Source of the DNA: Escherichia phage KIT06 | Sequence record: OQ349392.1 | Strand: one strand, 5' to 3' | Length of the DNA: 64,000 bases | Shown here: piece after piece, positions 20,737-36,602 of the stretch | Numbering within the stretch: the stretch's first letter is position 1 | Layout: each line of letters opens with the position of its first letter | The notes under the pieces: model-generated | The model's database searches: none | What the model was told of the DNA's origin: nothing | What the model saw: the letters and a program-made list of their open reading frames with translations, nothing else | Position numbers and translations under genes: made by a program

Positions 20737-23700
20737 CTATTTTAACCTGTGTTGGATTTTCAGGGTCTCTTGGATTTCCTATATCGTCTTTTAGACGTTT
20801 ATTAACTAAATCCCTAAATTGTGCAAATGTTGTTCCAGATGCATCAAATAAAGGACTCATTAATTTACGTCGTTCAGACGGCAATTGACCTTGAAATATT
20901 GAATTATTATTTTCAGCATTATAGTCATCAGGAAGAGGATATTTTACACCAGCCATTGGGCCAGGTTCATAAATTGCTTCGCCTGTTACCGAATCATGCT
21001 CAATTTCACCAGCTGGAGTCAATTTAGCTACTCTATCAGCATATTCAGTAGGCAATCCAGAATCCCATTTATAGTTTTTGTATTTATTAATTATAGTCTC
21101 TGTATGTTTAAGAGTTAAACCAACATTAATAAACATCGTTAAAAGAGTAATTGCTATAAATCCAAATCCTACTGGATGAACAAAACGAATAACGTCGGAT
21201 TTCCAGCGGGAAGAAGGCAAATTGGATTTAATTTTCATTACATAATATGATCGACTTCTATTAATATAGTCTATATTATTTTGAAGCAAATCCTTCCCTT
21301 TAACTCCACGAATAATTTCGCCTTCAAAACTAGGGAGTCTTTCTGCTTTAACTTCTTGACCGGCAATTAATCTTCCTAAAAGATTATGAATAGTTACAGT
21401 CCATTGCAATTTACCGTTAGAATAACTTCTTTCTATATAAGTAACATTACATCTTCCTGTGGCTGTATAAATCGTTTGTCCTACTAAGTCTTCAGTCAAA
21501 GAATCAGATTGAACGATTATATCATATTCAGTACCAGCCCCAGATTCAATTTCAATTTCAACCTCTTCATTATAAAGAACTTTAAAAAGAAATTTGTATG
21601 ATGCTTCAATTCCTTTAGTAGAATAAAAATCATAGCTACGTGATTCGAAAAATCTTGGTACCAGCCCCAGATTCAATTTCAATTTCAACCTCTTCATTAT
21701 AAAGAACTTTAAAAAGAAATTTGTATGATGCTTCAATTCCTTTAGTAGAATAAAAATCATAGCTACGTGATTCGAAAAATCTTGCAACAGCATCACGTTT
21801 GTCAGCATTTAAATAAATGTTTCTTTTATATATCTCTGACCACAAATATTCCCATGCATGCTCTTCTCGTGGATATTTGTTACGAATTAAATTTCGTAAA
21901 TTGTTATATTGGGTTCCATATCCATCAGAAAGATATTGAATATATGCTTCGCAAAATGCCTCAAAATTCGAATCCTGTAACAAATAAGAATCAGGCATCA
22001 TTGTGCCAATCAATGGTCTTAAATCAGGGTCAGCTAATCCACGCTCTTCTTCAGGCGACCAAGGAGTTTCATGCTCTTGGTTTTGTAAAAATGCTTTTAA
22101 AAATACTTCAGTTGGCTTCCAAATAATTTCTACAGTGTCTCTAACACGATAGTTAAAATCATAGTAAGAAATTATTTCACCAGAAGCTTTATAGAAAAGC
22201 ATCCCAGATGCATATTTTTTAAATCCAGTGAATTTAACATTTGGCATTACTATAGTGCAATCGCCATCGTCCCAATATTCATGAACTAATCTATCTGGTG
22301 ATGTTTCCGGAATATTTTCTATAACTTTAGTGTATTTTAAATCAGCATAAACTACTACAACCCTATCAGAGTTGTTTATCCAACAACGTGTGTTAGATTT
22401 TTTAGACCAGTTAAAGAATGGTTCAGCGTAGTATTTCATCGGCTGAGGAGTAAAAGTTTCCCAATCAGACTTTTCATCTGCTATAAATGCCATCATATGA
22501 TAATGCTTATCAGCTAGCCATTCACGAGGAAATTCATATTTAACGGCACCGATTAACTGATATTTTGCTGCAGTTTCAGGGTCATTAACAACATTATCAC
22601 TTAAAAATTTAAAATTACTCGATGATAGAGAAACTAATTTACCATCAGTTGACATATTCGCATACCCTGGTTGAATACGTCTTCTTTCTTCTTCAGTGTT
22701 GCCAAAAACTCTTTTCCATGTTTTTGTGTCATGATTTAAAACATATATTCCTTTATCAGCAGAATCAATTATTTTTGATGTTCTAGGATTAGCATTTAAT
22801 GTTTCAACTTCACCAATAATAAGAGCAAAAACTTTATCACCGACAGAATCCATTTTATAGCATACTGCTTTAGGATTTCCGGTTATAGTCATAGTATCAG
22901 GTTCAAAAAGTCTTTCCGAATATGTCGGAGATAATGGATCAGAATCTATAGGTGCATTACTCGTTTTTATGTATCTAACTTTGTCTCTGGCGACAACGTA
23001 AATGTAATCATCGGTGCAAGTAATAGCTTCTGCAATGCGATATACATTAGCTGGTAAAGTCGCGTAAGTGGCAAAAATTTCTACATCAAATCCTAGATGT
23101 AATTGGTCACCGAGTTTAGCGAATGTTATATCCTGCGAACTAAATCTGACATCATCAGCTGACCATCTAACATCAGTCGATTTGCGGCCATAGAAAATCT
23201 TGTCGTATCCTAGAACGTATGTTGTGTTCGCAGATTGGTAATATACTGTCTTAGATAAAGGATATCCTACGCGGTCATTGAAGAGCTTTACAGCTTTCCA
23301 GGTTTGTCCTTTATCATTAGATACTTTAACTACAGGTTGATAACGCTCAAAAAGATATAGAATCCCTTCTGATTCCATCAAATAAACTCGGTTAATATCC
23401 TTACATACTTGCTGAATAGAACCTTGTATTTCATGATACTCATTTTCACCAATAATAAAATTACTTATTGATGAAACATCAACATATGATGGGCTGAATT
23501 GAAACGATTCATTCATCAATGCAGCCATTATAGTGTCATTGTTAAAATTGACATAATCAGAATTATTAAGAGTAAATTTTTCCTGAATGAATTTATTAGC
23601 TAATTGCATTTCAATCATGTTTTGAAATGTATAAGCATTTGTAGCAAAAGTTTCAAACTCTTCGGTATAAATCCAATCAGACTGCTCAAAATCTTGTGCA

Positions 23701-29113: not shown

Positions 29114-29566
29114 ATGGCATATTCTGGAAAATGGGTTCCTAAAAATATATCAAAATATAGAGGTGACCCTAAAAAAATTACGTATAGATCAAATTGGGAA
29201 AAATTCTTTTTTGAATGGTTAGATAAAAATCCAGAAATTATTGCATGGGGTAGTGAAACAGCAGTAATTCCTTATTTTTGTAATGCAGAAGGGAAAAAAC
29301 GTAGATACTTCATGGATATTTGGATGAAAGATTCTTCTGGACAAGAATTTTTTATTGAAATAAAACCTAAAAAAGAAACACAACCACCAGTTAAACCGGC
29401 ACATCTAACAACTGCAGCGAAGAAAAGATTTATGAATGAAATTTATACATATTCCGTTAATACCGACAAATGGAAAGCAGCACAATCTTTAGCTGAAAAG
29501 CGCGGAATAAAATTTAGAATTCTAACAGAAGATGGATTACGAGCTCTTGGCTTTAAGGGGGCATAA
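29114..29566 (+). CDS. 4: head completion protein gp4
   Basis: 150-aa ORF; SD ggagaa upstream; size and synteny match T4 gp4. Confidence 0.9.
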
Positions 29567-30390
29567 TGGCTATTTTTCAAATAATTAATGAAAGCACTCC
29601 CCAAGTTCCAAAGGTTAAGCAATCATTAAACGAAAAGAAATGGATTCAGATAGGTCTTGAATACAGAAAGGCCAAAGCAAAAGGAATGACAGGAAAGCAA
29701 TTTGCTGAAGAAAGAGGAATTAAATATTCTACGTTTACTTCGGCAATGTCAAAATATGCTTCAGGAATTAAAACGGCTGAAAAGATTCAAAAGCTTGAAT
29801 CAAAACCAATGAATAAACTCAATAAGCAAGAAAGACAACTGCTTATGATAAATTCATTCAGACAAACGTTGCGTGATAAAATTCGTAATGAAGGTGCAGC
29901 AATTAATAATAAAACCAGAAAGTGGTTTGCTGAAACTATTAAGCAAGTAAAAGGACATAAAGTTGTTCGCCCGCAGCCGGGACGAATATATGCTTTTGCT
30001 TACGATGCTAAACACAAAGAAACTCTTCCTTATTGGGATAAATTTCCTTTGATAATTTACCTCGGTTTAGGTAAACATAATTTAATGTACGGATTGAACT
30101 TGCACTATATTCCACCTAAAGCTCGTCAGCAATTTCTAGAAGAGCTTTTAAAGCAATATTCAAATACACCTACTATTACTAATAAAACGAAATTAAAAAT
30201 TGATTGGAGCCAAGTGAAAGGATTTAGGGGTGCAGACCAAATGATTAAGGCATATATACCTGGTAATATTATGGGTAGCCTTGTTGAAATCGCCCCGAAA
30301 GACTGGGCGAACGTTGTGTTGATGCCACTTCAGCAGTTCGTTTCAAAAGGAAAACGTTTCTCTGCAAACAAAGTCTGGTCAAATATCTAA
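29566..30390 (+). CDS. 2: DNA end protector protein gp2
   Basis: 274-aa ORF; ATGA overlap with gene 4; size and synteny match T4 gp2. Confidence 0.9.
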
Positions 30391-30496
30391 TTCTATTATC
30401 TTCCATTCTTTTCTATTGTTTGTTCTAATTGGAATTGAATGGAAGGGACTTAGACCCATTATACCACCAACACTTATAAAGCATTATGAGGAATAT

Positions 30497-31027
30497 ATGT
30501 CGCAAGCACTACAACAAATTTTTAACCAAGCAAATACAACTAACTTTGTAGTATCAATACCACATAGTAATACTACATCTGCTTTTACTTTAAATGCTCA
30601 GTCAGTTCCTATTCCGGGAATTAGGATACCTGTTACTGATACCGTGACTGGGCCGTTTGGACTAGGCCGTGCACAGCGTCCAGGAGTTACATTTGAGTAC
30701 GACCCACTCATTGTGAGATTTATAGTTGATGAAGAGCTTAAGTCATGGATAGGAATGTATGAATGGATGCTAGGAACTAGTAACTATCTTACAGGCGAAA
30801 ATACTGCCCAAAAAACAGGTCCTGAATACATTACGCTTTACATTTTAGATAACAGTAAAACTGAAATCGTGATGTCAATAAATTTTTATAAGCCTTGGGT
30901 TTCTGACCTGTCTGAAGTAGAATTTAGCTACACGGAAGATTCAGACCCAGCTTTAGTATGTACAGCAACGATTCCTTATACGTATTTTCAAGTAGAAAAA
31001 GATGGTAAAATTATAGCAGAAGTTTAA
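30497..31027 (+). CDS. 3: tail completion / sheath stabiliser gp3
   Basis: Track ORF 30416..31027 begins at TTG; first ATG at 30497 (MSQALQQIFNQANTTNFVV...) gives 176 aa, the T4 gp3 length. Confidence 0.88.
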   Translation: MSQALQQIFNQANTTNFVVSIPHSNTTSAFTLNAQSVPIPGIRIPVTDTVTGPFGLGRAQRPGVTFEYDPLIVRFIVDEELKSWIGMYEWMLGTSNYLTGENTAQKTGPEYITLYILDNSKTEIVMSINFYKPWVSDLSEVEFSYTEDSDPALVCTATIPYTYFQVEKDGKIIAEV

Positions 31028-31051
31028 TGCTTCAGTTTTGTGTGTTATAAT
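31028..31051 (+). promoter_or_regulatory. candidate MotA-dependent middle promoter for gene 1
   Basis: MotA-box-like aTGCTTCA at 31028-31034 followed 11 nt later by TATAAT at 31046-31051, upstream of the gene 1 ATG (31077). Confidence 0.5.
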
Positions 31052-31076
31052 CTTAACTAAATTTGAGGAGAAACAT

Positions 31077-31789
31077 ATGAAACTAATCTTTTTAAGTGGT
31101 GTAAAGCGTAGTGGAAAAGATACTACTGCAGATTTTATCATGAATAATTATTCTGCAGTTAAATATCAACTTGCTGGTCCTATTAAGGATGCATTGGCTT
31201 ATGCATGGGGCGTATTTGCAGCAAACACTGACTATCCTTGTTTAACTCGTAAAGAGTTTGAAGGAATTGACTATGATCGCGAGACTAATTTAAATCTGAC
31301 TAAATTAGAAGTAATTACGATTATGGAACAAGCATTTTGCTATCTTAATAGTAAAAGCCCAATTAAAGGTGTGTTTGTTTTTGATGACGCAGTTAATTTC
31401 GTAGCATTTAACAAGATTGCTGACGTTATAAATAATATTGAAGATCAATGGTCAGTCCGTCGTCTGATGCAAGCCCTAGGTACGGATTTGATTGTTAATA
31501 ACTTCGACCGCATGTATTGGGTAAAATTATTTGCTTTAGATTATCTTGATAAATTTAACTCAGGTTATGATTATTATATCGTTCCTGATACTCGTCAAGA
31601 TCATGAAATGGATGCGGCTAGGGCGATGGGTGCTACAGTAATTCATGTAGTTCGTCCTGGTCAAAAATCCAATGATACTCATATTACAGAAGCTGGATTG
31701 CCAATTCGTGATGGTGATTTAGTAATTACAAACGATGGTTCTCTTGAAGAACTTTTTTCTAAAATTAAAAATACACTAAAGGTACTATA

Positions 31790-31790
<1 letters not shown>
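31077..31790 (+). CDS. 1: deoxynucleoside monophosphate kinase
   Basis: Track ORF 31038..31790; ATG at 31077 preceded by GAGGAG; P-loop at the N-terminus (MKLIFLSGVKRSGKDT). Confidence 0.9.
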
Positions 31791-32487
<697 letters not shown>

Positions 32488-32498
32488 TTTCACAAAGT

Positions 32499-32530
32499 TG
32501 TTTACACGCTGATGAGGTAGTGATACTATT
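32499..32530 (+). promoter_or_regulatory. early promoter plus stem-loop module (PeSL-like) upstream of ipI
   Basis: GTTTAC -35 at 32499-32504, gtGATACTAT -10 region, inverted repeat gatgag/ctcatc around the -10. Confidence 0.6.
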
Positions 32531-32559
32531 ATCTCATCAAAATTAATTAGGAAAATAAA

Positions 32560-32847
32560 ATGAAAACTTTCAAAGAATTTACTTCTACAACTATCCCGGT
32601 TTCTACTATTACTGAAGCTACTCTTACTTCTGAAGTTATTAAAGCAAATAAAGGACGAGAAGGTAAACCAATGATTAGTTTGGTTGATGGCGAAGAAATC
32701 AAAGGTACTGTTTACCTAGGTGATGGGTGGTCTGCTAAAAAGGATGGTGCTACAATCATTATCTCTCCTGCTGAAGAAACTGCGTTGTTTAAAGCTAAAC
32801 ACATTTCTGCGGCACATCTCAAGATTATTGCTAAAAATCTTTTGTAA
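32560..32847 (+). CDS. ipI: internal protein I precursor (capsid-targeted; mature IPI* would be 76 aa)
   Basis: 95-aa ORF with capsid targeting sequence MKTFKEFTSTTIPVSTITE followed by ATLTSEVIKANKGREGKPMISLVDGEEIKG... Confidence 0.9.
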   Translation: MKTFKEFTSTTIPVSTITEATLTSEVIKANKGREGKPMISLVDGEEIKGTVYLGDGWSAKKDGATIIISPAEETALFKAKHISAAHLKIIAKNLL

Positions 32848-32865
32848 TAAATATTTCACAAAGTT

Positions 32866-32897
32866 GTTTACATAGGGTTTTAGTTGTGATACTATTA
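32866..32897 (+). promoter_or_regulatory. early promoter plus stem-loop module (PeSL-like)
   Basis: GTTTAC at 32866-32871; gtGATACTAT -10 region; inverted repeat tagggt/accctat. Confidence 0.6.
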
Positions 32898-32923
32898 CCC
32901 TATCAACTACTGAGGAGAATAAA

Positions 32924-33196
32924 ATGAAAACATTTAAAGAATTTATCAATGAAGCTACTTTTAACGAAAAAGTAAAAATTAGCAAAGCTGTCAAGACTAT
33001 GATTGATAACATCAATTACCTATATGGTATTGATTTAACTGACTATGTAACAGTTGGTAACAAACGTAACTATTTCGTGTTTGACATCTCTGAACTTGAC
33101 CAGAATCAAATTAACAACATTGAGCGTTTTGCTAATGATAAGGGTCTTCGTCATGAGTCAGCGGGTTATAAAAAATACGCAATTTATTTAAAATGA
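32924..33196 (+). CDS. internal-protein-like capsid-targeted protein (ip cassette 2)
   Basis: 90-aa ORF starting MKTFKEFINEA (CTS-like), own promoter module, unrelated body sequence. Confidence 0.7.
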   Translation: MKTFKEFINEATFNEKVKISKAVKTMIDNINYLYGIDLTDYVTVGNKRNYFVFDISELDQNQINNIERFANDKGLRHESAGYKKYAIYLK

Positions 33197-33228
33197 GTTT
33201 ACTTTTAAATAGGGTTGTGGTACTATTA
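33197..33228 (+). promoter_or_regulatory. early promoter plus stem-loop module (PeSL-like)
   Basis: GTTTAC at 33197-33202; gtGGTACTAT -10 region; imperfect inverted repeat. Confidence 0.55.
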
Positions 33229-33256
33229 CCTTATCAAAATTAATTAGGAAAATAAA

Positions 33257-33565
33257 ATGAAAACTTACCAAGAATTTATCAATGAAGCGGCTGCACCAAA
33301 GACATTCATTATTTATACTCAAGCGGGTCTTGATGATGAGTATGCGGAAGCAATTCTGAGGTCACTTGCTAAGAACGGCGTTGAAGTAATCGCCTCGGAC
33401 TTTAAGAAAGGGGCTTCCGAGCTGTTTATTTCTATAACTAAAGGATCTAAAGCTAAAATCAAATCATCATTCGGAGTTGCTCGTACCGATCAAATCGACA
33501 ATCATGACTTTAAACAAACTGGTGCTAAACGGCAGAACACAATTGCATCACGCGGAATAAAATAG
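33257..33565 (+). CDS. internal-protein-like capsid-targeted protein (ip cassette 3)
   Basis: 102-aa ORF starting MKTYQEFINEAAAPK (CTS-like). Confidence 0.7.
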   Translation: MKTYQEFINEAAAPKTFIIYTQAGLDDEYAEAILRSLAKNGVEVIASDFKKGASELFISITKGSKAKIKSSFGVARTDQIDNHDFKQTGAKRQNTIASRGIK

Positions 33566-33575
33566 TTTATAAACC

Positions 33576-33607
33576 GTTTACTTTTAGATAGGGTAGTGAT
33601 ATTATTA
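33576..33607 (+). promoter_or_regulatory. early promoter plus stem-loop module (PeSL-like)
   Basis: GTTTAC at 33576-33581; gtGATATTAT -10 region; inverted repeat tagggta/taccctat. Confidence 0.55.
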
Positions 33608-33633
33608 CCCTATCAACTACTGAGGAGAATAAA

Positions 33634-33857
33634 ATGAAAACTTATCAAAAATTTATCGCTGAAGCTAAAAGACATGAAGATGAACTACCAATTGTTACGA
33701 AAACTTTTGATGGTACATTAAGTGATTTTAAAAAATTCCTAGCGATAAACTTTCTAAGTTAACTGGCTCTATTAGTGAAAAGGATGGTAAAGTCACGTTT
33801 TCTGCTCGTGGCACTGCTAATCTTAAAAAGCTTTTGAAAGCTGCTGGAGCGGAATAA
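33634..33857 (+). pseudogene. internal-protein-like cassette 4, frame broken in an A6 run
   Basis: ATG 33634 gives MKTYQKFIAEAKRHEDELPIVTKTFDGTLSDFKKFLAINFLS then stop at 33760; the -1 frame continues from the A-run (33730-33735) as IPSDKLSKLTGSISEKDGKVTFSARGTANLKKLLKAAGAE to 33857. Confidence 0.55.
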
Positions 33858-33860
33858 GTT

Positions 33861-33892
33861 GTTTACTTCTGGGTAGTAGTGTGATACTATTA
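33861..33892 (+). promoter_or_regulatory. early promoter plus stem-loop module (PeSL-like)
   Basis: GTTTAC at 33861-33866; gtGATACTAT; inverted repeat gggtag/taccc. Confidence 0.55.
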
Positions 33893-33918
33893 CCCTATCA
33901 ACTACTGAGGAGAATAAA

Positions 33919-34104: not shown

Positions 34105-34509
34105 ATGAATATTAACGAATATTATGTTTATGCTGGGGATTATGCAAATCCTTCTCATTTTGAAGGTAATTTAATACCTGATAGAGTTTTTAATACTCCT
34201 TTTGAAGCGTGGAGTTGGGTTGAAAGTAAAAATGGATTTTCTTATCGTTATGTTGAAGTAACTGATTGGAAAGGAACTAAATATCCTAAAGAGCATTATT
34301 ATGTAGACCCATCTAAAGTAAATTTTCTTTTGTTCGCAGGCGATAATTACTATCCTTGCGGTGGATATGATGATTTGATTGCGTATGCTGAAACAGAAGA
34401 TGAATTACGCCAAATTATTGAAGACAATAAATCAAAACGATTTGGTGATAGTTTTGACTGGTGGCAAATCGTAAATGCCCATACACATACTATTGTTGAT
34501 AAAGGTTAA
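34105..34509 (+). CDS. hypothetical protein
   Basis: 134-aa ORF tightly packed after the previous stop; Tyr/Trp-rich; no family recognised. Confidence 0.6.
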   Translation: MNINEYYVYAGDYANPSHFEGNLIPDRVFNTPFEAWSWVESKNGFSYRYVEVTDWKGTKYPKEHYYVDPSKVNFLLFAGDNYYPCGGYDDLIAYAETEDELRQIIEDNKSKRFGDSFDWWQIVNAHTHTIVDKG

Positions 34510-35989: not shown

Positions 35990-36076
35990 GGGGAGTTATC
36001 CCGTAGAGGTAGCGGTGTGGACTGTAAATCCATTGTCATTGCGACTCGGGTGGTTCGACTCCATCACTCCCCACCA
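35990..36076 (+). tRNA. tRNA-Tyr (anticodon GUA), type II
   Basis: Acceptor ggggagt/actcccc, anticodon stem gtgga/tccat, loop ctGTAaa, long variable arm, T-loop ttcgact. Confidence 0.7.
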
Positions 36077-36080
36077 ATTT

Positions 36081-36155
36081 GGATGTGTAGCTCAATGGCA
36101 GAGCGATCGCCTGTTAAGCGATTGGTTATAGGTTCGAATCCTATCACGTCCGCCA
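36081..36155 (+). tRNA. tRNA-Asn (anticodon GUU)
   Basis: Acceptor ggatgtg/cacgtcc, anticodon stem atcgc/gcgat, loop ctGTTaa, T-loop ttcgaat. Confidence 0.75.
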
Positions 36156-36159
36156 AATC

Positions 36160-36235
36160 CGAGGCATAGCTCAGAAGGAAGAGCAAGGACCTTCTAAGTC
36201 CTAGGTCGTAGGTTCGATCCCTATTGCCTCGACCA
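36160..36235 (+). tRNA. tRNA-Arg (anticodon UCU)
   Basis: Acceptor cgaggca/tgcctcg, anticodon stem aggac/gtcct, loop ctTCTaa. Confidence 0.85.
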
Positions 36236-36251
36236 ATTAAGTGAGGAAAAT

Positions 36252-36602
36252 ATGAAAGGTAATGTTTATTTAGTAGTTCATGGTTTAACATTCTATTTTA
36301 ATCACAATGACACTGTTATTTCTGAACGTGTAATTAATTTACTTTATCAGCATGCAGATTATGTTTATGTCGAAAACGAATACGGTCATTGGCAATTTCT
36401 CAAAAATCGTTCATTTGGTTTAGATGGTTACGAATACTTTGAACGTAAAGACCTTTTAGATAAAATTCCATTATCTACACAATATCAAAATCACAAGTCT
36501 TTATATAAATGCCGTCCAATTCGAAATGCTGAATCTGCGTATGAAGTAATTGATTTATGGCGTAAACGTCGTGGACAGGTTGATGCTTTAAAAGAATATT
36601 AA
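36252..36602 (+). CDS. hypothetical protein between tRNA-Arg and the structured RNA region
   Basis: 116-aa ORF with SD gtgaggaaaat upstream of the ATG. Confidence 0.6.
   Translation: MKGNVYLVVHGLTFYFNHNDTVISERVINLLYQHADYVYVENEYGHWQFLKNRSFGLDGYEYFERKDLLDKIPLSTQYQNHKSLYKCRPIRNAESAYEVIDLWRKRRGQVDALKEY

What the first reader, a model, noticed from the sequence alone, without database searches (positions are those of the whole stretch)
33634..33857. Fourth ip cassette is split by a frameshift inside an A6 homopolymer run
The CTS-bearing ORF stops after 42 codons, but the -1 frame continues for another 40 sense codons from the run ttttaaaaaatt (33727-33737) to a stop at 33857, downstream of an intact promoter and SD. 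This is either a recently inactivated cassette, a homopolymer sequencing error, or a slippage-dependent gene.
Basis: seen in the sequence. Interest (0 to 1): 0.4.

Follow-up and report, generated by a model that had tools for sequence, protein, structure and literature searches.

The report
Frameshifted ip8 internal-protein gene, phage KIT06
One small, dispensable "internal protein" gene (ip8) of a T4-like phage has lost a single A from a run of seven, which cuts the protein in half; this is an ordinary slippage mutation (or, less likely, a sequencing error) and not a special recoding device.

Summary
ORF 33634-33762 encodes 42 aa with a T4-type capsid targeting sequence. The -1 frame then stays open for 40 codons to TAA at 33855-33857, and the switch point is the A6 run at 33730-33735.

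The window is Escherichia phage KIT06 (reverse complement of genome coordinates about 41452-105451), and the ORF is the authors' ORF137, a "hypothetical protein".

Relatives from four genera carry one continuous 225-nt, 74-aa gene, Ip8 (phrog_8765). Most have A7 at this site. Phage EP01 is identical across the cassette except for that one A. Both halves of the gene evolve under purifying selection in a single frame (dN/dS about 0.12). No relative shares the two-frame layout. There is no slippery heptamer and no downstream RNA structure, so programmed frameshifting is rejected.

The genome was sequenced on Illumina MiSeq at 153x, and no other gene in the 64 kb has a homopolymer frameshift. A real, very recent A7-to-A6 replication-slippage deletion is therefore most likely (about 0.75), and a consensus error less likely (about 0.15).

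Independent A-run frameshifts occur at two other A runs of ip8, in phage C6 and in a metagenomic scaffold. This fits the recently described phage "contingency loci". Interest is low.

The parts
32487..33918 (+). Array of four internal-protein (ip) cassettes between 57B/acb1 and tRNA.4. Five copies of a promoter/RBS module (GTTTAC-N17-TAyTAT...CTATCAA...GGAG..ATG) precede the four cassettes and tRNA.4.
   Evidence: Direct-repeat families D1-D3; promoter-like sites; PHROG and Pfam hits to internal head/virion proteins and IPI_T4
33576..33633 (+). Promoter/RBS module of the fourth cassette. It holds a promoter-like site at 33577-33605 and the SD GAGGAG at 33622-33627. It is intact and identical to EP01.
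33634..33762 (+). Truncated ip8 ORF of 42 aa. Residues 1-34 are native Ip8 and residues 35-42 (FLAINFLS) are out-of-frame. It equals KIT06 ORF137 / WCS66761.1.
33634..33663 (+). Capsid targeting sequence MKTYQKFIAE. The expected prohead-protease cut after Glu10 is an inference from T4 internal proteins.
   Evidence: Read directly from the sequence; the first 11 residues are conserved in all homologues; CTS concept from PMC3012670
33730..33735 (+). A6 run, the site of the 1-nt deletion. The ancestral state is A7 (AAA AAA ATT, coding K K I).
   Evidence: Alignments A1 and A2; indel list against EP01
33735..33857 (+). Out-of-frame remnant of ip8 codons 35-74 (IPSDK...AAGAE) plus the original TAA stop. 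It is unannotated in the KIT06 record.

Best explanation
The fourth cassette is the ip8 gene of Escherichia phage KIT06. It carries a very recent single-base deletion (A7 to A6) in its longest homopolymer.

The intact gene encodes a 74-aa precursor. It has a 10-residue capsid targeting sequence followed by a roughly 64-residue small alpha/beta domain. By analogy with T4 internal proteins, it would be packaged into the head and injected with the DNA.

The deletion most likely arose by strand slippage of the phage DNA polymerase on the A run (Streisinger-type). It shifts the frame after Lys34, so the product is a 42-aa precursor that keeps the targeting sequence and the first beta strand and loses the rest of the fold. 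This is a loss-of-function allele of a dispensable, fast-turnover gene.

Because the lesion sits in a homopolymer, it should revert (A6 to A7) at a high rate. Trace amounts of full-length protein could also arise from non-programmed slippage.

**Shown:** the frameshift, its position, the intact state in relatives, selection on the single frame, and the absence of recoding signals.

**Inferred:** that the mutation is real in the phage DNA, that the protein is packaged and injected, and that function is lost.
For: 1. Phages EP01, vB_SsoM_113 and UFV-AREG1, an IMG/VR contig, an ENA scaffold, and Marfavirus, Jiaodavirus and Dhakavirus phages all have a 225-nt single ORF. The site reads AAAAAAA-TT/TC or AAAAAA-GT. 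The window has 224 nt.
2. EP01 is identical over the whole cassette and both flanking promoter modules except for the one A.
3. A tblastn search with the restored protein found 107 phage records, all covering at least 80% of the query. All 120 rows displayed across the two listings were a single piece.
4. dN/dS is 0.11 for codons 1-34 and 0.13 for codons 35-74, in one frame. Variable columns by codon position are 17/13/45.
5. The family is Ip8 / phrog_8765 'internal virion protein'.
6. The source genome, KIT06, was sequenced on Illumina MiSeq 2x301 and assembled with SPAdes at 153x.
7. About 94 EP01 genes have a counterpart in the window. Only this one shows a homopolymer frameshift. The three other runs of 7 in the window lie in genes that are intact.
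8. The AlphaFold model (pLDDT 77) places strand 1 at residues 20-26. All remaining elements (helix 37-42, strands 45-50 and 53-59, helix 61-71) lie downstream of the frameshift.
9. Single-base repeats of 6 or more in T2, T4 and T6 show reversible +/-1 indels at about 3e-4 per read and revert 1,000- to 10,000-fold faster than point mutants (bioRxiv 10.1101/2025.10.21.683753).
Against: - No read-level data could be inspected, so a consensus error or a mixed population is not excluded.
- The same record contains one clear assembly artefact, the 127-nt tandem duplication in gene 7. The assembly was therefore not carefully curated.
- The 42-aa allele is a singleton among about 15 billion proteins. 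The A6 allele was not found in IMG/VR or JGI metagenomes. There is no independent confirmation that it exists in nature.
Confidence: 0.75

Rival explanations
1. Sequencing or assembly error. The phage really has A7 and an intact ip8, and the consensus dropped one A in the homopolymer.
For: - The lesion sits exactly in what would be one of only four runs of 7 or more in the 64 kb.
- There are no other differences from EP01 in the cassette.
- The record retains an uncurated SPAdes-type 127-nt overlap duplication that splits essential gene 7.
- The allele is seen nowhere else.
Against: - Illumina MiSeq at 153x rarely yields a wrong majority call at a 7-mer.
- The three other 7-runs and 50 runs of 6 show no frameshifts, and all other comparable genes are full length.
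- Within-stock indel frequencies at such runs are about 3e-4, far below a majority.
Confidence: 0.15
2. Slippage-dependent (recoded) gene. The two-frame arrangement is functional, and full-length Ip8 is made by programmed -1 ribosomal frameshifting or by transcriptional slippage on the A run.
For: - The promoter, SD, targeting sequence and downstream frame are all intact.
- AAA-AAA read by the single E. coli tRNA-Lys is intrinsically somewhat shift-prone (general knowledge).
- A -1 slip at the second Lys codon would recreate exactly the native protein.
Against: - No relative has the two-frame layout. All encode one ORF under purifying selection.
- The 0-frame context U-AAA-AAA is not an X-XXY-YYZ heptamer.
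- The -1 frame is closed by TAA up to the run.
- The downstream 95 nt fold no better than shuffles (z = -0.48).
- A6 is shorter than the runs of about 9 or more used for productive transcriptional slippage (general knowledge).
- An intact downstream frame is expected anyway for a deletion with zero subsequent substitutions.
Confidence: 0.03
3. Adaptive OFF state of a contingency locus. The A runs of ip8 act as a reversible switch, and the OFF allele was selected in KIT06's lineage because injected Ip8 is useless or harmful on its host.
For: - Three independent single-base indels lie at three different A runs of this 225-nt gene. They are KIT06 (A7 to A6), phage C6 (7 A where relatives have AAAAAG, a +1 change) and ENA scaffold SMIT22-1 (A6 to A5, on 3 contigs).
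- Phage contingency loci in T-even phages have been demonstrated for agt and rIIA.
- Internal proteins are counter-defence effectors in at least one case, IPI*.
Against: - Frameshifted alleles are rare. None occurs among 107 phage records, and only 3 of 18 protein clusters are affected.
- The A runs are explained by Lys-Lys codons in an AT-rich genome.
- Other Lys codons in the gene are equally often invariant AAA, so there is no sign of selection for the run.
- No phenotype is known for Ip8.
Confidence: 0.1

Closest known systems
Ip8 of T-even phage RB15 (EMBL Z35082, Repoila et al. 1994) / phrog_8765 'internal virion protein'
   Same: - Same family: the restored protein is 85% identical to RB15 Ip8 by tblastn, and the PHROG E-value is 1.4e-26.
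- Same N-terminal targeting sequence.
- Same position in the variable ip locus next to 57B.
   Different: The window's copy is frameshifted after codon 34. Every other deposited copy examined is a continuous 72-74-aa ORF.
T4 IPI / IPI* (PF11634), injected inhibitor of the GmrS/GmrD type IV restriction enzyme
   Same: - Same cassette architecture: promoter module, SD, targeting sequence and a small basic protein.
- IPI itself is the first cassette of this array, at 32560-32847.
- It serves as the functional model for what intact Ip8 may do (PMC3012670).
   Different: - There is no sequence or confident fold similarity between Ip8 and IPI.
- The Ip8 model gives no significant PDB match. The best Foldseek E-value is 0.26, with only a faint KH-like topology.
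- The target of Ip8 is unknown.
Streisinger slipped-strand frameshifts / phage contingency loci (Gomez, Barrick & Waters, bioRxiv 10.1101/2025.10.21.683753)
   Same: A +/-1 indel in a mononucleotide run of 6 or more inside a non-essential T-even gene, expected to be reversible at high frequency.
   Different: Here only one state is seen in one consensus genome. Neither an elevated rate, nor reversibility, nor a selective trade-off has been measured for ip8.
Programmed -1 frameshifting (E. coli dnaX A-AAA-AAG; phage tail chaperone G/GT)
   Same: Lys codons in an A run, and a -1 frame that continues into a meaningful polypeptide.
   Different: There is no proper heptamer, no stimulatory structure and no conservation of the arrangement. 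The relatives encode the fusion directly.

Membership tests
T4-type internal protein, Ip8 family | N-terminal capsid targeting sequence (MKTYQEFIAE-like, ending in I/L-x-E before the cleavage site) | tested here: met
   The sequence is MKTYQKFIAE|A. M1, K2, F7, I8, E10 and A11 are invariant in 15 homologues.
T4-type internal protein, Ip8 family | Sequence homology to named Ip8 / internal virion proteins | tested here: met
   phrog_8765 at E = 1.4e-26; tblastn hits to RB15 ip8 and VR5 ip8
T4-type internal protein, Ip8 family | Location in the variable ip locus between 57B and tRNA.4, behind its own promoter module | tested here: met
T4-type internal protein, Ip8 family | Continuous ORF encoding the full mature domain | tested here: not met
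   224 nt instead of 225 nt, with a frame change after codon 34
T4-type internal protein, Ip8 family | Protein present in the head, cleaved by the prohead protease and injected | not testable with these tools
   Needs virion proteomics
Programmed -1 ribosomal frameshift site | Slippery heptamer X-XXY-YYZ in the 0 frame | tested here: not met
   The 0-frame codons are GAU UUU AAA AAA UUC. The heptamer U-AAA-AAA fails at the first position. The -1 frame carries UAA at 33729-33731.
Programmed -1 ribosomal frameshift site | Downstream stimulatory RNA structure | tested here: not met
   MFE -17.1 kcal/mol against a shuffle mean of -15.7, z = -0.48
Programmed -1 ribosomal frameshift site | Two-frame arrangement conserved in relatives | tested here: not met
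   All relatives are single-frame
Transcriptional-slippage gene | Long A/T run (typically 9 or more) conserved out of frame | tested here: not met
   The run is 6 nt. The relatives' run of 7 is in frame. The length threshold is from general knowledge.
Phage contingency locus (Gomez et al. 2025) | Mononucleotide repeat of 6 or more inside an ORF | tested here: met
   A6 here and A7 in relatives; criterion as given
Phage contingency locus (Gomez et al. 2025) | Elevated, reversible +/-1 mutation rate at the repeat | not testable with these tools
   Only indirect support: independent indels at two other A runs of ip8 in phage C6 and scaffold SMIT22-1
Phage contingency locus (Gomez et al. 2025) | Phenotypic trade-off between ON and OFF states | not testable with these tools
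   The function of Ip8 is unknown
Homopolymer sequencing artefact | Error-prone platform or low coverage | tested here: not met
   Illumina MiSeq 2x301, 153x
Homopolymer sequencing artefact | Other homopolymer frameshifts in the same assembly | tested here: not met
   None among the other comparable genes. The only other broken gene is gene 7, and that is split by a 127-nt duplication.
Homopolymer sequencing artefact | Reads disagree with the consensus | not testable with these tools
No Logan or ENA contig of this phage was found.

The most novel reading that the evidence does not exclude
The Lys-Lys A runs of ip8 work as a phage contingency locus. They reversibly switch an injected, host-directed protein on and off. 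The KIT06 OFF allele would then be a selected state, for example because Ip8 is sensed by a host defence, rather than neutral decay. The independent A-run frameshifts in phage C6 and in the SMIT22-1 scaffold would be further OFF states of the same switch.
Probability: 0.1. Interest if true: 0.5.

Novelty: new member of a known kind. Interest (0 to 1): 0.15.

Why it matters
For annotation, KIT06 ORF137 should be labelled a frameshifted ip8 (internal virion protein) rather than a 42-aa hypothetical protein.

For biology, it is a small natural example of gene turnover in the T-even internal-protein locus. Cassettes there are gained, lost and, in this case, switched off by homopolymer slippage.

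If the ON/OFF reading were confirmed, the recently proposed phage contingency-locus idea would extend to injected proteins that, by analogy with IPI*, may act against host defences. In itself the finding is unsurprising. It does not open a new question.

Tried and rejected
- **Independent assembly of the KIT06 reads.** Exact-protein look-ups of the 42-aa product and of the neighbouring 102-aa protein were not on record. The 61-aa and 90-aa neighbours led only to other phages. No read-level proxy was obtained.
- **The A6 allele elsewhere.** The short pattern gave two unrelated chance matches in IMG/VR. The longer degenerate A6 pattern gave no matches in IMG/VR or JGI metagenomes. The A7 control gave only 2 and 1 matches, so the test has little power.
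- **Function of Ip8.** Pfam gave only a sub-threshold KH hit at E = 0.086. The PDB sequence search found nothing with E below 0.4. Foldseek against PDB found nothing with E below 0.26. No function can be assigned.
- **Selection for the A run.** Other Lys codons in the alignment are about as often invariant AAA, so the idea that the run is specifically conserved was rejected.
- **Other apparent frame changes.** Multi-frame tblastn hits for gp9 and gp10 are paralogue cross-matches, not frameshifts.
- **Repoila et al. 1994** (PMC395341) could not be read.

Full report
**1. What is in the sequence**

The region lies in a T4-like genome. On the + strand the gene order is gene 1 (dNMP kinase), 57A, 57B, four short ORFs that start MKT(F/Y)(K/Q)(E/K)F, tRNA.4, tRNA.3, tRNA.2, and then a tRNA cluster.

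The fourth short ORF runs from 33634 to 33762 and encodes MKTYQKFIAEAKRHEDELPIVTKTFDGTLSDFKKFLAINFLS*. The -1 frame reads ...F*KIPSDKLSKLTGSISEKDGKVTFSARGTANLKKLLKAAGAE* and ends at 33855-33857. The two frames meet in an A6 run at 33730-33735.

A promoter-like site (33577-33605) and GAGGAG (33622-33627) precede the ATG. The same promoter/RBS module of about 55-90 nt occurs five times, before each of the four cassettes and before tRNA.4.

**2. Source of the window**

The 42-aa product is, letter for letter, WCS66761.1, 'hypothetical protein KIT06_00016 [Escherichia phage KIT06]', on a 167,059-bp contig. It is a singleton cluster among about 15 billion proteins.

The KIT06 paper (PMC11274021) gives the same genome length. 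Its supplementary ORF table lists ORF137 at 71818..71690, ORF138 at 72195..71887 and ORF152 at 81498..83816. These map exactly onto window ORFs under genome coordinate = 105452 - window coordinate. The stretch downstream of ORF137 is unannotated.

The genome was sequenced on Illumina MiSeq 2x301 and assembled with SPAdes 3.11 at 153x. The reads are in PRJNA1101219.

**3. Comparison with relatives**

KIT06 itself is not in the phage collection searched, where the best 24-kb match is 96.8% identical. Locally the closest relative is Escherichia phage EP01. It has the same four cassettes and annotates the fourth as a 225-nt CDS.

In the alignment the window and EP01 are identical over the whole cassette and both flanking modules, except that EP01 has seven A. 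vB_SsoM_113 and UFV-AREG1 also have A7 and a 74-aa ORF.

Six more homologues all have a 225-nt ORF. They are an IMG/VR contig, an ENA scaffold, Klebsiella phages of Marfavirus and Jiaodavirus, and two Dhakavirus phages. The site reads AAAAAAATT/ATC in four of these six and AAAAAAGTT/GTC in two.

A tblastn search with the restored protein found 107 phage records, all covering at least 80% of the query. Every one of the 120 rows displayed (best 60 plus a spread of 60) is a single piece. Among them are RB15 'ip8: Ip8' (Z35082.1) and VR5 'ip8', which gives the family its name. PHROGs files it as phrog_8765, 'internal virion protein'.

Among the nine relatives, variable columns fall 17/13/45 on codon positions 1/2/3. 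dN/dS is 0.11 for codons 1-34 and 0.13 for codons 35-74. The gene is thus one protein under purifying selection throughout, in one frame.

**4. Rejecting recoding**

It is not met in any relative.

The 0-frame context GAU UUU AAA AAA UUC contains no X-XXY-YYZ heptamer. The -1 frame is closed by UAA until the run itself. The 95 nt downstream fold no better than shuffled sequence (z = -0.48). Six A is well below the run lengths that support productive transcriptional slippage (general knowledge).

The open downstream frame needs no functional explanation. It is simply the undecayed remainder of a gene that differs from EP01 by nothing but the deletion.

**5. Real mutation or error?**

I compared about 94 EP01 proteins with the window by tblastn. 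Only two are broken: this gene and gene 7.

Gene 7 is split by a perfect 127-nt tandem duplication at 21531-21657 / 21658-21784. 127 is the largest default SPAdes k-mer. This is therefore almost certainly the untrimmed end-overlap of a circular contig, left inside the sequence when the genome was re-oriented. The authors' table indeed lists two gene-7 fragments. That is an assembly artefact, but of a different kind.

The indel list against EP01 shows that the A-run deletion is the only isolated 1-nt indel inside a coding region. The window has 50 runs of exactly six and three of exactly seven, and none longer. The three 7-runs lie in genes that are full length.

An Illumina consensus at 153x is very unlikely to miscall a 7-mer. 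The measured within-stock indel frequency at such runs in T2, T4 and T6 is about 3e-4.

I therefore put about 0.75 on a genuine deletion fixed, or at least in the majority, in the sequenced stock. I put about 0.15 on a consensus error. Only the reads can decide.

**6. Mechanism and consequence**

The ancestral A7 would have been one of only four runs of 7 or more in 64 kb, making it the most slippage-prone kind of site present. T-even DNA polymerase slippage at A runs is the classical Streisinger mechanism (general knowledge).

A recent preprint shows directly that repeats of 6 or more in T2, T4 and T6 undergo reversible +/-1 changes. Repeat mutants reverted 1,000- to 10,000-fold more often than point mutants in agt and rIIA.

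An AlphaFold model of the restored protein has mean pLDDT 76.8. It shows a disordered N-terminus (the targeting sequence), then strand 20-26, helix 37-42, strands 45-50 and 53-59, and helix 61-71. The frameshift after residue 34 removes everything but the first strand, so the product should be non-functional.

The targeting sequence is retained, so a 32-residue fragment might still be packaged. This is inference.

KIT06 was isolated, propagated and characterised with this allele (PMC11274021), so ip8 is dispensable on its laboratory host. This is consistent with the view of T-even internal proteins as a diverse, exchangeable set of injected proteins sharing only the targeting sequence. T4 IPI*, an inhibitor of the GmrS/GmrD restriction enzyme, is the one member with a known target (PMC3012670). 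IPI itself is the first cassette of this array (PF11634, E = 2e-53).

**7. Other frameshifted alleles of the family**

The protein search returned 18 clusters. Most are 72-74 aa, and three are truncated.

Besides KIT06, phage C6 (MW679410.1) has GCTAAAAAAACAC, with 7 A where intact relatives have AAAAAG or AAAAGA. This is a +1 change that stops the N-terminal ORF after 25 codons. Its C-terminal part was called as a 46-aa protein.

An ENA scaffold (SMIT22-1; three contigs carry the product) has CTTAAAAACTTTTGA. That is A5 where relatives have A6, and it truncates the last nine residues.

A fourth variant, P0024, has an in-frame 9-residue deletion.

Single-base indels thus occur independently at all three A runs of this Lys-rich 225-nt gene. 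This fits mutation-prone homopolymers in a dispensable gene and is compatible with the contingency-locus idea.

Such alleles are rare, however: none among 107 phage records. The runs are also explained by Lys-Lys codons in a 36% G+C genome, and other Lys codons are equally often invariant AAA. I see no evidence that the switch is selected.

**8. Function of intact Ip8**

The function remains unknown. There is no Pfam family above threshold, no PDB relative by sequence and no significant Foldseek match (best E = 0.26, faintly KH-like).

**9. Verdict**

It is best explained as a very recent slippage deletion that inactivates the ip8 cassette of phage KIT06. Programmed frameshifting is rejected, and sequencing error remains a minor alternative.

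It is a new instance of a well-known kind of event. Interest is low (0.15). The most novel reading not excluded is ip8 as a selected ON/OFF contingency locus for an injected protein. I give it about 0.1 probability, and it would be of moderate interest if true.

Noticed in passing
window 21531-21784 (gene 7, minus strand): A perfect 127-nt tandem duplication splits the essential baseplate gene 7 into ORFs of 772 and 359 aa, where EP01 has a single 1012-aa ORF. 127 is the largest default SPAdes k-mer, so this is almost certainly an untrimmed circular-contig overlap left inside the record. The KIT06 genome length of 167,059 bp is then overstated by 127 bp. The authors' ORF152 and ORF153 are two halves of one gene.
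   Followed up: yes
L024 1417-1641 (phage C6, MW679410.1) and L026 301-501 (ENA scaffold SMIT22-1): There are independent single-base indels at two other A runs of ip8. Phage C6 has 7 A where relatives have AAAAAG (a +1 change at codons 12-13). The scaffold has A5 where relatives have A6 (a -1 change at codons 64-65, on 3 contigs). All three A runs of this small gene are thus hit in different genomes.
   Followed up: partly
window 32487-33918; loci L009-L018: The number and identity of ip cassettes between 57B and tRNA.4 varies from 0 to 4 among otherwise similar T4-like contigs. L014 has none, L010 has IPI only, L018 has three, and the window and EP01 have four. Every cassette is bounded by the same promoter/RBS repeat, which could mediate gain and loss by recombination.
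   Followed up: partly
window 29114-31790; KIT06 paper Supplementary ORF table (ORFs 143-148): The functional labels in the published table appear shifted by one row. The 714-nt ORF (gene 1, dNMP kinase) is called 'tail fiber chaperone'. The 531-nt ORF (gp3, tail completion) is called 'dNMP kinase'. The 825-nt ORF (gp2) is called 'tail completion'. The 453-nt ORF (gp4) is called 'DNA end protector'. This is judged against the EP01 annotation of the same genes.
   Followed up: partly
window 32032-32487: Gene 57B, immediately upstream of the ip array, belongs to Pfam PF23474 (Acb1) according to the precomputed hits on its homologues in related contigs. If Ip8 is an anti-defence protein like IPI, the ip array would sit next to another anti-defence gene. 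Acb1 is known as an anti-CBASS nuclease (general knowledge).
   Followed up: no
window 34105-34509 and about 36000-36600, compared with L004: There are local mosaic differences from EP01. The window carries tRNA.3 (134 aa), which EP01 lacks. EP01 carries a homing endonuclease and a 187-aa ORF near the tRNA cluster that have no counterpart in the window. Gene 1 has an in-frame 12-nt deletion at 31390.
   Followed up: no
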